Below are positions 18,001 through 27,000 of a stretch of 64,000 nt of DNA, piece by piece. The stretch lies in contig CAJINV010000004.1 of assembly GCA_905178155.1 (NCBI GenBank), positions 342,969 to 406,968 of the forward strand, written 5' to 3'. The notes beneath the pieces are model-generated. The model searched no databases, had not been told where the DNA came from, and was given only the letters and a program-made list of their open reading frames with translations. Each line of letters begins with the position of its first letter. Position 1 is the first letter of the stretch. This DNA is from Amoebophrya sp. A120. Its lineage: Eukaryota; Protista; Dinoflagellata. Position numbers and translations under genes: made by a program.

Positions 18001-21000
18001 CTACATGATGATGATGTTGATGATGATGATGATGTTGATGATGATGATGATGATGATGATGATGATGATGATGATGATGATGATGATGATGATGATGATG
18101 ATGATGATGATGATGATGATGATGATGATGATGATGATGATGATGATGATGATGATGATGATGATGATGATGATGATGATGATGATGATGATGAAGCTTC
18201 GTCGAGTGACAAGTTCTCGACGCCAAACTTGTAATGCAGAAAGCGCAATCTTCCGCCTTGAATTCATCTTGCCATTCTTGCATTACAAAGAAATGCATGC
18301 AACAGCTGAAAGTGTAACGTTTGAGAAGTCCATACGTCCGCCACCCAGGAACTGGTGGTCCGCTCTATATCCACAGTAAATTTCCCGTACACGTACAAAT
18401 GCAGTGTCTGCATGACAAAACTTGCCTTCAGTCCTAGTCTAGCATGACAAGTTGGACACTGCAAGTTAGCGAAATTTGTCATGCATTTTGTACATGTGCT
18501 GGAAATTTACATTGCATACTTTATGGCGGAATGCAAGAAGGCGCTCCGGATTGTCGGCCGGGACCCGAACGTATCCGAGTGCACAACCCGCCCCCTCCCC
18601 CTCATTTGCAATGCAAAGTACCAAACTCAGAAATCTTGCTCGTAAGCACCGCTAGCATGACAAATTTTGGAACAGGAGCCTGCTTAAATAGTACTACAAT
18701 CATCTGCACGACGCAGATTTGTCAATGATCGAAACTCCCTTTATTTCTGCTGTTTCTTGTGTTGCTGTCCATGGTATAGTACAAATGAGGGGGAAAAGGA
18801 GTTTTGCACTCGGATAGGACGACGAATTTGCAGCGAGCCCCGGCAACGGCGGCTGGGAGGACATCCCTTCCGGGTGCTCCATTCACCCTGCAAATGTGGG
18901 TGTAGCCAATGGTAATAAACCCTCTGGTGCGACCGCCATCGAAGAAGAGCACAGTAACCTGCCGTACTTTAACTACCGCTTCGGACGTGGCAATGGACGG
19001 TGGGACCTGCAGCCGGTGTGTAAAAAGTTCATGCCGCTCGGCACCGAGCGCCAGCTGCTCTGGACCGAAGTGGAGATGGACCCCACTGCTTGCAGTCCAC
19101 CCACGAGTGATACTACGGCGAAAGCCTGGGAGCCGCTGCGGTACGACCCTGACGATCCGCCGGATAAATGCTACGAGTCCGAGTCGGATAGCAATGCGGA
19201 GGCGAAGCTTACCTACATAATGAAGGGGTCCACGCCCATGTGGATTAAGAAAATTGTGGTTTTCGGACGTACAGACGGCACAGGAGACCAGTTGGGCGGA
19301 CAAAATGTCTACGTGGATGACGGAGCGGGAAACTTTGACGACCTGGGCACGCTGCCGGAATCCATTCCGTCAACCGGGGCTCTCTTCAAAGTGGACCGGG
19401 CTGCAAAAAAACTGCGGCTTGGTGGCAACAAAGAGATAATCAGCCTCTGCGGCATTGAAATTTACGCCCAAAACATTGAATTCCGGTTCGCGCCCCTTGA
19501 GTTGCAGGTGCAGCAGAGCGGGGCGGATGACAAGAATGTGTACGACATTCCCGTTGAGGACCGCAAGCCGCTCGACTACCAGGGGGCTAGTACAGAGTGG
19601 AATGAGAACGCGGCGCTGACCTCTTGCAGAGAAATCAAGGCTGATTCGAACGGCGAGTGGTACTACAAAATCAAACTGCACGCGTTTGAGTACGTCACTC
19701 GTGCGCACCTTTTCTCGTGCAAGGACAACGCCAAAGGAGGCCTCACCGTGAAGAAGGTGACTATGGCGTTCTCAACTGTTACACTCTCAACTGTTGCGCG
19801 GATTTGTGATGCAAGAATGGCAAAAATGAAAGGGGTCACCTTGCGGGTCTTGCGTGACAGGTCTGGCAAAGATTCCGAGCCTGTTTGGCTCTTCGAGAAT
19901 TTGTCATGCGAAGCAGCTTGATCGCGTCGATTCTGATTCTGATTTTGCATTACAAATCACGTAACAGTTGAGAGCGTAACAGTTGCAAGCGCCATAGTGA
20001 CCGTGTTGGAGACAGCGGAGGCGATATACGAGCGGGTGGATCCAGGCAGCGCAGACCCGAAGACGGTGGAACAGTGGGTGGGGGACGTGAGCGCCGACCC
20101 CGGACTCGAGAAAGGGGGGACCTGGATTCCCATCTATCGGTTTACGGACGAGGTAGTGTTCCACTTCCTCAAGCCCGGCACGGACAGTCAGGATTCCGTG
20201 TACCTGTGTGGACTCGAGCTGTACTACGGGGTGAAAGACTACAACATGCAAGAACAGGAGATCGCCAAGAAGGCCCTGCGGGATGCCGTGGCAACGGCCG
20301 ACCAGAGCGCGCAGTCAATGAAGGAGGAGGCGGCAACCATCACCGCGAATATCGAATCCCTGCGAGACGAGATCGAGGGGTTGAAGTCCCAAAGCGCCAC
20401 CTTCGCAGCAGAGAAACAAGCTCTGATCGAGGCTATGCAAAAGGTGCTGGGCCGCGCGGAAGCGAAGTTGACGGCGCAGCAGGAGGCTATCCTGTGCAAA
20501 AGTATCATACTCGTAGTAATTGCAAACATGCATTACAAATTTTGTTCCTAAGCCAAATCCGCATTACAAACTTTATTTCTCACGCTGAGAAAATTTGTGA
20601 TGCATTTATACGAGTGCGATCATGCTTTTGCAATGCATAGAGGCCGAAGTCCACCAAAAATATGCATTTTTGCAAATATGTCTGGGTCTCGAAAGTTGCA
20701 ACTTGTGATGCTACTTTCGGACTCTAAAAAAATCTTTACCGAGTCTGTGCTAAGTGGGAAGGGCATTTGTAGTCATGCGGAATAGGCATGATCAGGAAGC
20801 CGGCTAAAAATTATCTGTGATGCTAAAGCAAAAGCACACATCACAGACATAATATGGCTCATGCAAAACGTGCATGACAAAGTTGCACTCATCCAGACCC
20901 AGACATATAATTTGCATTTGATAAAAAACAGGACTACGCCAGACAGACAGAGGAGCAAAAAACCGCGGCCCAACAATTGGTGGACGCGTATGACAGTGCA

Positions 21001-24000: not shown

Positions 24001-27000
24001 AAAAATCCCCGCACCCCATACTCAAACTAGAAATTTGTGATGCAGATTTGTGGTCACAAATCAGCTTTGTCATGCTAGAAGGGAAAAGATGCGGACTGTA
24101 GTGCTGGTTGGCGTGGGAAAGCCTTGCATCATCAGCATGACAGGGGGAGCTGGAAGTGGGAAACAGCATGACAAATTGCCTGCAAACGAGGCCACAGCTG
24201 CGTCTCTTGGCCTTCTGGCATTACAAGTCAATTTGTGTACTCAAATACAGCATCACAAATTTCGTTTTCGATATGGGGAGGGGGGATTTTCCCTTTTGAT
24301 ACGCTGCAAAAGGAAAACGACCAGCGGGTGGAATCCAACGCGCTTGCGAAGGAAGAACAGGTGCACAAGGAAAACACGACCCTCGTATGCAATGTAAATA
24401 ATTTCCCGTACATGTACAAAATGCATGACAAATTTCGCTAACTTGAAGTGTCCGACTTGTCATGCTAGACTGGGATTGAAGGCAAGTTTTGTCATGCAGA
24501 GACTGCATTTGTACGTGTGCGGGAAATTTACTGTGGATACCTCGCAAAGCTGCGCACCGAGTTCGACCTGTTGATGAACTCGATCCGCGCCAACGAAACG
24601 GACACGAAGGTCGCTATCAAAGTGAAAAAAGCCCCCACCCCATATAGAAAAGACAATTTGTGTTGCTGGATTTGTGTATACAAATGAGGTTTGTATTGCA
24701 GCAAGAGCTTGCCGGCATATTCTGAGCCCATTTGGGTACGCACCCTTGTTTGCGCTATACAATGCGCCACATGGGTGCCGTTTGCCTTGTACGCAAGACA
24801 AAGCTGATTTGTGGTCACAAATCCGCATCGTAAGTTTTCTTTTCGATATGGGGAGGGGGGATTTTTCCTTACGATAGTCGCCGCGCGGAACACGGAGGAA
24901 CAGCAGAAGGTGAACCTGCAGGCCGAGCGGAAGGCGGAGTTGCAGGCGGAGGAGTCCTATCCTGTGCAAAAGTATCGTATTCGTATAAATGCATTACAAA
25001 TTTCCTCAGCATGGTAAATAAAATTTGTAATGCAGATTTGCTTTCAGTAAAAAATTTGTAATGCATGATCGCAATACGAGTGCGATACTTTTGCACGGGA
25101 TAAGTCCGGCAAGCGGAAATCCCGGGAGGAAGAGGTGGAGCAGAAGACCCGACTCTATGGAAGCGTCAGGATCGAAACCGTCAAAGTTGAAATAACTTGT
25201 AATGCATGAAATACATGACGCGAAATACGTGTGTTGCAGAGCAGGCAAGTGAGGCCGATTGTAAGCCTGTCTGGGGTTTGAGCTCGAGCTGCTAAAGCAG
25301 CATGAGAGAATCCCTCTTCTTTGCCTCGACAGCATTACAAACTGGATTTAGGCACCACCAAAATTTGTGATGCGTCACTTAGAAACTGGGCTCTAACTGG
25401 CATCCAATTGATGCATGACAAATCATGTCATAACTTTGTCGATTTCGATCCTGACGGTTCCATAGACTCGCGCAGGAACGGAAAGCGGAGCTGAACCTGG
25501 AGAAGGCGGCCAAAGAAAAGGAGCAGCTCGAGGAGGAAGAAGCCAAGGTGATGCAGCTGAAGATCGTGAGGGCCGAGCGGCTATGCATTGCAAAAGTATC
25601 GTACTCGTATAAATGCATTTACAAATTTCCTCAGCATGAGAAATGAAATTTGTCATGCGGATTTACCTTGAGAAAAAAATTTGGAATGCATGAGTGACTG
25701 CAATTACTACGAGTGCGATATTTTTGCACAGGATAGCGGCAGATGGAGGACGCGGGCAAGCGGAAAATGCGGGAAGAGGAAGTGCATATCGATGTGTCAG
25801 GATCGAAATCGACAAAATCGAAAAATTTGTAGAGCATAAAATGTAGGGCAGCACTGAAGGCGTGTATTGGGGAGCAGGCAAATGAAACCGATTGCAAGCT
25901 GCCTGTTTAGGGGTATACAATTCGCTGCCAGAGCCAGAGTAGCATGACAGGAGCAGTGTTTTTTGCCCAAACAGCATGACAGACTGGGCTTGGGTGCAGC
26001 TCCCGAAATTTGTCATGCGCCACTCGGAAGCTGAGGCCTCCAACTGGGATCGATTTTGTGCATCACAAATTTTTCGACTTTGTCAAAAATTTCCATTCTG
26101 ACACTTCCATAGTGCAGAACAAAACTTTGTCGAAGATGCAAATGACGGCCGAGATTCAGGTATCACAAGGAAAAATCCCCCCACCCCATATCAAAAGGAA
26201 GTTTCTGATGCTGGATTTGCGTGCACAAATCAGGTTTCTCTTGCAGTAGAGGACTTCAGGCTCCTGCCAAGCCTGAGGAGAGAGGTTTTGGCCTAGGCGC
26301 TTAGCATGAGAAACGTCTATGCTGTAGGCCCAACAGCATCACAAACCGCCTGCATGATGCGGCAGAGCCTGTGGCGTCGTCTTCTTGCAAGACAGGCATG
26401 ATTTGTGGTATCAAATCAGCAAGACAAATTTTTGGAAACGTACCTTTTCGATATGGGGAGGGGGGATCTTTCCTCTCGATATCAGGCGGAGTCCGCCAGC
26501 AAGCGCGCCTTCCGCGATGAGGAGATCAAAAACAAAACCCTTTATCCAGGAAAAAACACCCATCCCCATCCATTTTGTGCATGACAGATAGTGGAGTTTG
26601 TGCATGTTTTGCATGACAAATTGGATGGGGATGGGTGTTTTTTTCTGGATACCCTTGCGATTGCCATGATGAAGGCAGAGGTGCGGATGGAGGGCTCCCA
26701 GAAGGCAAAAGAGCGCGACGCGTATCAAATGCAAATATCTCTGGGTCTGGAAGATTCCGAGGTTTGTCATGCTGGTCCGGCATGACCGTTAACTCTGTAT
26801 TGCGTGGCCACAAACAGGCAGCTCTCTCGCTTGTCATGCAAAAACGCAGTTCTTCATCCGGAATACGCAGAACAGAAGCACGAAAAAACTTGTCATGCTT
26901 GGCGACGCATCTTCACAGTGCATTCGTCATTGACTGACTTGCTTTACAAGTTTCCAGACTCAAACATATTTGATGCAGTGCATACCGCGGAAACGCAGAA

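What the first reader, a model, noticed from the sequence alone, without database searches (positions are those of the whole stretch)
18368..24539. The same element acts as an intron in either orientation
Seen: family I copies 18368-18518 and 61625-61782 run TATCCACAG...ATTGCATA, while 24386-24539 is the reverse complement (TATGCAATG...CTGTGGATA). Family C shows the same (20488 TATCCTGTG...CAATGCATA versus 23803 TATGCATTG...CACAGGATA). Known: spliceosomal introns need polar donor, branch point and acceptor signals. Inference: recognition is symmetric (hairpin plus motif on both strands).
Basis: partly seen in the sequence, partly recalled or inferred. Interest (0 to 1): 0.8.

Follow-up and report, generated by a model that had tools for sequence, protein, structure and literature searches.

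The report
Known introners splice in both orientations
Copies of small hairpin-ended transposons sit inside this protist's genes facing either way and are missing in both orientations from assembled sequences that are likely its RNA; they match the already published non-GT-AG "introner" introns of the parasite Amoebophrya, and the two-way behaviour likely follows from their inverted ends presenting the same start and end signals whichever way they face.

Summary
Observation confirmed. 24386-24539 is the reverse complement of 18368-18518 (143 of 151 aligned bases), and 23803 of 20488 (130 of 148), in the same + strand reading frame. The window holds 118 TAT...ATA elements with 5-nt flanking repeats. 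Removing element plus one repeat opens four ORFs crossing all 118. Nine of 11 families occur both ways; the minority orientation holds 33 of 96 copies against 35.8 expected at 50:50. One contig of a probable RNA run lacks 22 consecutive elements, by summed offsets, including 3+3 opposite copies of family C; a DNA run keeps them. The anatomy matches Amoebrophrya-type A120 introners (PMC7789003), and either-orientation intron creation is published for Polarella and Aureococcus (10.1101/2020.10.14.339549). No GT-AG or branch consensus lies on either strand. 'Symmetric recognition' is only half right: inverted ends give the RNA the same 5' and 3' ends either way, and the cut is likely polar (1 base before, 4 after). 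The shared motif looks more like a DNA-binding site. This scan noted the system, register and motif before on other DNA. Known system; orientation neutrality here was not found in print.

The parts
14803..34907 (+). Host open reading frame, 2138 codons stop-to-stop after removing 51 elements each with one 5-nt repeat; weakly lectin-like region followed by long coiled coil
   Evidence: weak hits
18368..18518 (+). Family I introner, orientation A; flanking repeat CTCTA/CTTTA (one mismatch)
   Evidence: removal inferred from ORF only, no junction listed
61625..61782 (+). Family I introner, orientation A; repeat CCATT/CTATG; in ORF 47404-63999
   Evidence: ORF only
24386..24539 (-). Family I introner, orientation B; repeat CCTCG
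   Evidence: inside the span bridged by X3 record 9
20488..20639 (+). Family C introner, one orientation; repeat GAGGC
   Evidence: bridged span
22077..22236 (+). Family C introner, same orientation as 20488; repeat TCCAG
   Evidence: bridged span
22706..22858 (+). Family C introner, same orientation as 20488; repeat GGTGC
   Evidence: bridged span
23803..23951 (-). Family C introner, opposite orientation; repeat AAACT
   Evidence: bridged span
24958..25102 (-). Family C introner, opposite orientation by interior, both ends of TATCC type; repeat AGTCC
   Evidence: bridged span
25582..25735 (-). Family C introner, opposite orientation; repeat GCGGC
   Evidence: bridged span
18572..18816 (.). 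Singleton introner, repeat GAACG/GGACG; flanked by an available GT...AG pair that the contig edge indicates is not used
   Evidence: X3 record 9 piece starts at 18819; X1 DNA unitig 18470-19788 runs through it unbroken
19762..19996 (.). Introner of the TATGGCGTTCTC family; joint 19756->19997 (element+5) read directly
   Evidence: table 8
20661..20923 (+). Introner of the 25-copy family, orientation A
   Evidence: bridged span
23455..23684 (-). Introner of the 25-copy family, orientation B
   Evidence: bridged span
20989..21211 (+). Introner, orientation A of a 3-copy family (opposite copy 47744-47984 joined)
21332..21656 (+). Introner of the ~325-nt family, orientation A (opposite copy 26161-26481 also in bridged span)
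21707..22021 (+). Introner of the ~280-nt family
   Evidence: bridged span
22308..22633 (+). Introner of the ~325-nt family, orientation A
   Evidence: bridged span
23071..23378 (-). Introner of the ~309-nt family, orientation B (opposite copies 25156, 25787 in bridged span)
23991..24301 (+). Introner of a 5-copy family
   Evidence: bridged span

Best explanation
These are non-autonomous inverted-repeat transposon copies (Amoebophrya A120-type introners) that lie in either orientation inside exons and are missing, with one copy of their 5-nt flanking repeat, from contigs that are likely RNA; orientation likely does not matter because the inverted ends give the transcript the same start and end signals either way, and a relaxed U2-type spliceosome likely cuts at a fixed, transcript-polar offset (likely 1 base before the element and 4 after). 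Shown: structure, both orientations, balance, element+5 removal, absence of GT-AG. Inferred: insertion by a cut-and-paste transposase making a 5-bp target duplication; the cut register; the role of the spliceosome; that the internal GCATNACAAA motif serves transposition at DNA level rather than splicing. Because one repeat copy leaves with the intron, the mRNA returns to its pre-insertion sequence at any site, phase or orientation, which would explain both the density (118 in 64 kb) and the lack of orientation bias.
For: Structure: 118 elements, 90 with perfect 5-nt repeats (shuffled pairing mean 1.05, max 6 in 10,000; detection partly selected on the repeat), four + strand ORFs of 1712, 2138, 815 and 2504 codons crossing 23+51+15+29 elements. 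Balance: minority orientation 33 of 96 vs 35.8+-2.9 (P=0.21); repeat decay equal in major and minor orientation (46 of 61 vs 27 of 33 perfect, p=0.61). Removal: X3 record 9 (3204 nt, 0 differences in its 5 listed pieces) matches predicted offsets over 4 junction-crossing intervals holding 1, 8, 2 and 11 elements; three more joints skip exactly element+5 (246, 241, 268 nt). DNA run X1 reads through elements at ~43x. End symmetry: 5' and inward-read 3' base tables are near identical; mismatches to family consensus over 70 nt are 972 at 5'-placed vs 1020 at 3'-placed ends. Register: contig edges keep the left repeat's positions 1 (26723) and 2 (18572); all 5 single mismatches at position 5 make the left base complementary to the base after ATA (baseline 23 of 90), which hints that left base 5 is the changed, intronic copy; all 5 terminal-triplet variants spare the 5' TA and the innermost 3' A. 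At that register the intron starts N-U-A, matching canonical +2 U and +3 A (established knowledge), with a U-run 15-19 nt before the 3' cut. Eight of the nine top A120 non-canonical motifs in Table S4 of PMC7789003 are xT-Ax, and all nine have T second. The paper reports 83 of 89 spliceosomal proteins present.
Against: No run is on record as RNA for this stretch; X3, X4, X6, X8 are guessed RNA, contigs only, one sample. Of the 22 bridged elements only one joint is listed singly; the rest rest on summed offsets. The family I orientation-A copies (18368, 61625) have no listed junction. The register rests on 2 contig edges and two post hoc sets of 5 events; positions 3-5 were not read from RNA. 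No branch point was found (YTRAY in 27 sense vs 21 antisense of 115; TACTAAC 0) and no enrichment of G at +1 or AG at the acceptor (GT-AG 6 of 118 at this register). U1 snRNA was not detected in A120. Nothing here shows spliceosomal chemistry. The A-first 3' dinucleotides in Table S4 are not explained by a 1+4 cut.
Confidence: 0.62

Rival explanations
1. A non-spliceosomal, structure-guided RNA excision: an endonuclease-ligase recognises the end-to-end hairpin (perhaps with a protein on the GCAUNACAAA motif) and makes a staggered cut, as suspected for euglenid nonconventional introns. This is closest to the first reader's idea.
For: Ends pair in predicted folds on both strands; no dinucleotide rule (61 of 88 perfect-repeat elements have no GT-AG, GC-AG, GA-AG or AT-AC in any equivalent register); an available GT-AG at 18572 is not used; motif in elements 465 hits per 30.4 kb vs 4 per 21.8 kb of exon; U1 undetected; euglenid introns leave as circles without lariats (PMC11282704 section 6).
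Against: Terminal 4-bp pairing is weak in many spliced copies (mean 0.12-0.24 for 22706 and 20488); terminal variants are polar in a way that fits +2 U/+3 A (5 of 5); 5 of 25 contig-supported elements lack the motif within 60 nt of the 3' end; elements inflated to 1.1-2.3 kb still keep the frame.
Confidence: 0.22
2. The elements are removed from DNA in one life stage (like ciliate internal eliminated sequences), so orientation is irrelevant.
For: TA-started ends, 31-33 nt phasing of the internal motif (121 of 350 spacings at 30-34 vs 24.8 by chance) suggest a DNA-level binder; only one DNA sample was laid; X3 is only guessed to be RNA.
Against: X1 unitigs cross exon-element joins unbroken at single-copy depth (18470-19788 through 18572-18816); PMC7789003 reports these introns as RNA-seq supported against the genome; the phasing is also what a transposase binding array would give.
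Confidence: 0.05
3. The joins are reverse-transcriptase template switches across hairpins between direct repeats, and the genes are dead or read otherwise.
For: Hairpin plus short direct repeat is the textbook substrate for this artefact (own knowledge).
Against: 22 consecutive elements are absent from one contig; joins occur at imperfect repeats (18572, 26723); 77 of 118 retained elements would shift the frame yet the ORFs are intact over thousands of codons.
Confidence: 0.02
4. Each strand carries its own conventional donor, branch point and acceptor, so these are ordinary GT-AG introns both ways (the Aureococcus/Polarella pattern).
For: A U-run precedes the 3' end in both orientations; UnAy occurs near 3' ends of 103 of 115 (but also 102 antisense; it is a common 4-mer).
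Against: GT-AG possible in only 10 of 88 perfect-repeat elements; repeat composition follows exon composition.
Confidence: 0.02

Closest known systems
Introner elements / non-canonical introns of Amoebophrya sp. A120 (Farhat et al. 2021, PMC7789003; read: abstract, sections 10, 12, 16, passages of 11 and 32, supplement legends and Tables S4-S7 in part)
   Same: Inverted repeats starting TAT, seven variable bases, then an A-run; 5-bp direct repeats (legend of Fig. S19); about 240-nt mean length; no fixed splice dinucleotide; tens of introns per gene (also PMC12130899 passages).
   Different: The text and legends I searched say nothing on element orientation, fixed register or the shared internal motif; figures were not visible. 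The organism is inferred from this match, not from a sequence hit.
Either-orientation introners of Polarella glacialis (classes 1, 2, 3, 6, 7, 8, 10) and Aureococcus anophagefferens (10.1101/2020.10.14.339549, passages; Huff et al. 2016 not held, known only through that citation)
   Same: TIR elements with target duplications create introns when inserted either way.
   Different: There, splice sites are near-canonical (GH donor, AG acceptor) recruited from duplication and element end, and classes 6, 8, 10 are biased to one orientation. Here there is no dinucleotide need and no detectable bias.
Euglenid nonconventional introns and Fritillaria borealis MITE-derived introns (review PMC11282704, section 6)
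   Same: Inverted ends, duplication-like repeats, non-canonical junctions.
   Different: Euglenid introns lack a pyrimidine tract and leave as circles; Fritillaria uses mostly AG-AC/AG-AT with a modified U2 spliceosome. Neither chemistry was tested here.

Membership tests
Amoebophrya A120 introner elements | Inverted repeat starting TAT, 7 less-conserved bases, then at least 3 A | tested here: met
   TAT at 116 of 118 5' ends; A at element positions 11-13 in 81, 89, 105 of 118; mirrored at 3' ends
Amoebophrya A120 introner elements | Direct repeat of 3-5 nt at the exon/intron boundary | tested here: met
   5-nt repeat perfect in 90 of 118
Amoebophrya A120 introner elements | Repeated families without transposase | tested here: met
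   11 families, 96 copies, mostly 110-340 nt; interiors of the three inflated copies were not searched for transposase
Amoebophrya A120 introner elements | Removed from transcripts at non-GT-AG sites | tested here: met
   runs are guessed RNA, contigs only
Amoebophrya A120 introner elements | Host organism is Amoebophrya sp. A120 | tested here: inconclusive
   No genome held; protein searches gave no close relative; inferred from anatomy only
Canonical U2-type introns | GT/GC...AG ends | tested here: not met
   17 of 88 allow GT-AG or GC-AG in any register
Canonical U2-type introns | Branch-point consensus near the 3' end | tested here: not met
   No sense-strand excess of YTRAY, CTRAY or TACTAAC
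Canonical U2-type introns | Lariat chemistry by U2/U5/U6 | not testable with these tools
   needs lariat reads or inhibition
Aureococcus/Polarella either-orientation introners | Intron creation in both orientations | tested here: met
Aureococcus/Polarella either-orientation introners | Splice dinucleotide recruited from the target duplication | tested here: not met
   no GH or AG enrichment in the repeats
Ciliate-type internal eliminated sequences | Joined form exists as DNA | tested here: not met
   one DNA run, unitigs unbroken; other life stages not tested and contigs drop rare variants

The most novel reading that the evidence does not exclude
A fully two-way intron code: a transposon-derived protein or rewired U1-less spliceosome reads the hairpin ends plus the phased GCAUNACAAA array, whose U-N-A core reads as a UnAy branch-type sequence on both strands about 35-50 nt from either end, so that any insertion at any site in either orientation is removed without a trace, possibly without lariat chemistry.
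Probability: 0.15. Interest if true: 0.8.

Novelty: already known. Interest (0 to 1): 0.35.

Why it matters
The elements and the principle of either-orientation introners are published. What this window adds is a measured constraint on an open question, how A120-type introns are spliced without GT-AG and with no U1 detected: every needed signal must lie in the inverted ends or be two-way, since 9 of 11 families work both ways with no detectable bias or polar decay. That narrows the search to about 20 nt at each end and one internal motif, and makes opposite-orientation pairs natural controls for mapping cut sites and branch points.

Tried and rejected
Whole-genome counts: no genome is held, so counts are for this window only. 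No RNA holder is listed on record. The second lay (47650-56500), chosen for six mismatched repeats, had too little exon cover: 3 joints, all at perfect repeats, so repeat positions 3-5 were not read. Removal of element+0, +1, +3, +4, +6 does not give the long + strand ORFs; +2 keeps the frame but is excluded where contigs bridge. Translating mismatched repeats under each cut position gave no stop codon that fixes the register. Polarity tests were null: A/U-run strength p=0.49, motif near 5' vs 3' end 97 vs 87 of 115 (p=0.065), sense vs antisense folding energy p=0.10. One bin (element positions 11-15) had more mismatches at 3'-placed ends (42 vs 22, p=0.013; position 15 alone p=0.003), not significant after correcting for 14 bins or 70 positions. 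Rfam found nothing in the window. Protein searches found no close relative. Huff et al. 2016 is not held. Literature searches for an orientation statement on Amoebophrya (find in PMC7789003, PMC12130899, PMC11282704, PMC9860276) found none; figures, datasets and subscription papers were not visible and may hold one.
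Full report
Observation. The family I copies 18368-18518 and 61625-61782 each match the reverse complement of 24386-24539 at 143 of 151 aligned bases; the family C copy 20488-20639 matches the reverse complement of 23803-23951 at 130 of 148. Same-strand alignments are much worse and gapped, so orientation is a property of the interior, not only of the ends.

Anatomy. A search for TAT...ATA pairs with similar ends, completed by hand where reading frames or the internal motif showed gaps, gave 118 elements plus one nested copy. Each is flanked by a 5-nt direct repeat, perfect in 90 of 118; shuffling left against right flanks gives 1.05 on average, at most 6 in 10,000. Detection partly used the repeat, so that figure is biased upward; the independent check is the reading frame. 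Removing each element with one repeat copy opens four + strand ORFs of 1712, 2138, 815 and 2504 codons that cross 23, 51, 15 and 29 elements. Removing 0, 1, 3, 4 or 6 extra bases does not; 2 keeps the frame. All hosts are on the + strand, so window orientation equals orientation in the transcript.

Orientation. Interior-only clustering of 115 elements gave 11 families (96 copies) and 19 singletons, with no inconsistent orientation call. Nine families hold both orientations (15/10, 9/7, 5/6, 6/4, 7/2, 7/1, 3/2, 2/1, 2/1); two small groups (4/0, 2/0) do not. The minority total is 33 against 35.8+-2.9 at 50:50 (P=0.21). No single family departs significantly (lowest p=0.07). Repeat decay does not differ between orientations.

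Removal. Of 11 listed runs none that holds the stretch is on record as RNA. X1 behaves as DNA of this strain: its listed long pieces run from exon into element at depth 34-49, and 18470-19788 crosses element 18572-18816 unbroken. X3, guessed RNA, has one 3204-nt contig whose five listed pieces lie on exons with no differences. Its offsets equal the prediction for element+5 removal across four junction-crossing intervals holding 1, 8, 2 and 11 elements (the other four of the eight checkpoints lie within exons). That span holds three family C copies of each orientation, both orientations of three more families, and the family I copy 24386. The orientation-A copies of family I have ORF support only. 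A second lay gave three more exon-exon joints, each element+5; a fourth listed joint links two element copies with unknown sequence between and is not a splice. All four guessed-RNA runs are one sample.

Splice signals. Among 88 perfect-repeat elements, 61 allow no GT-AG, GC-AG, GA-AG or AT-AC in any equivalent register, and 10 allow GT-AG. At 18572 a GT...AG pair that would keep the frame is available, but the contig piece begins at 18819, as expected for element+5 with the left repeat base kept, not at 18818. Branch consensus sequences show no sense-strand excess.

Symmetry versus polarity. The two ends read inward are statistically alike: base tables, A/U-runs and divergence from family consensus (972 vs 1020 mismatches in 5530 positions each). 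Predicted folds pair the ends on either strand. This is why orientation can be ignored: the RNA starts UAU-S-N6-A-run and ends U-run-N6-S-AUA either way. It does not show that recognition is symmetric. A removal of element plus five bases cannot be split evenly. Contig edges keep left positions 1 and 2. All five single mismatches at position 5 make the left base pair with the base after ATA (baseline 23 of 90), which suggests that this base is intronic; all five terminal-triplet variants spare the 5' TA and the innermost 3' A, in both orientation classes. Both sets are small and post hoc, and the second test and the '1+4' wording were prompted by earlier notes of this scan. Together they bracket the cut between positions 2 and 4 and fit a 1+4 register, at which the intron begins N-U-A like a donor that has kept +2 U and +3 A. 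This is inference.

The motif. GCATNACAAA(T) occurs in elements at 465 matrix hits in 30.4 kb against 4 in 21.8 kb of exon, equally on both strands, first at about 35-50 nt from each end. Spacings cluster at 31-33 nt (121 of 350 at 30-34 vs 24.8+-4.8 by random placement; 20 of 27 groups), with 16-17 and 46-49 between opposite strands. Copies of a family are not independent, but the 31-33 spacing recurs across families. Three helical turns of DNA is the simplest reading, so a transposase or other DNA-binding site is likelier than an RNA signal; an RNA stem (33 per three turns) is not excluded. Its U-N-A core reads as UnAy on both strands, but 5 of 25 contig-supported elements lack it within 60 nt of the 3' end and it is not better kept there.

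Known systems. Farhat et al. 2021 (PMC7789003) describe A120 introners with inverted repeats of TAT, seven variable bases and at least three A, 3-5 nt direct repeats, no fixed dinucleotides, 29,850 repeated introns and no U1 snRNA detected. The window fits each sequence feature; the organism itself was not confirmed by a hit. Either-orientation intron creation is described for several Polarella classes and for Aureococcus (10.1101/2020.10.14.339549), with near-canonical sites. I found no statement on orientation for Amoebophrya in the texts searched (and searches); figures and datasets were not visible.

Verdict. Real, general in this genome, and an expected property of a published system. It is a useful constraint on an unsolved splicing mechanism, not a new system. 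Interest 0.35; the boldest reading, a two-way code read by a novel machine, has probability about 0.15.

Noticed in passing
window 16355-16997 with 16437-16835 inside: A 399-nt element with perfect 25-nt inverted ends of a different type (TATGGCCCGG...) and its own 5-nt repeat is nested inside another introner.
   Followed up: partly
window 1077-3398, 56322-57397, 59383-60973: Introner shells inflated to 2.3, 1.1 and 1.6 kb (the last spans the N gap) by secondary sequence; removing them with 5 nt keeps the frame. 1077-3398 holds a cluster of the shared motif and a ~45-nt direct repeat near 1597 and 2877; interiors not searched for transposase.
   Followed up: partly
window 17807-18334: An introner carries a ~190-nt GAT triplet expansion (18005-18194).
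   Followed up: no
all elements: The GCATNACAAA motif sits on a lattice of about 16, 32 and 48 nt, same strand at 31-33, opposite strands at 16-17 and 46-49.
   Followed up: partly
window 1077, 50740, 51345, 53718, 62571: All five single mismatches at repeat position 5 extend the terminal hairpin by one pair; may reflect conversion between arms or selection.
   Followed up: partly
window 24958-25102, 36900-37050: End types are swapped or homogenised relative to the interior, suggesting conversion between the two arms.
   Followed up: partly
window 40333-40512: No direct repeat left (0 of 5); the right flank resembles an inverted copy of the left, yet element+5 keeps the frame.
   Followed up: partly
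window 34872-35238 and 41543-47511: Likely canonical GT-AG introns that would join three ORFs into one very large gene mixing both intron types; no RNA check.
   Followed up: no
window 18821-19756; 11853-13142: Host proteins show weak similarity to a fucolectin-type protein (24% identity, E 1e-15) and a sub-threshold PAN domain; likely large surface or secreted proteins.
   Followed up: partly
runs X3, X4, X6, X8: Guessed-RNA contigs hold element ends running on into flanks from other loci, so some copies elsewhere are retained or lie outside coding exons.
   Followed up: no
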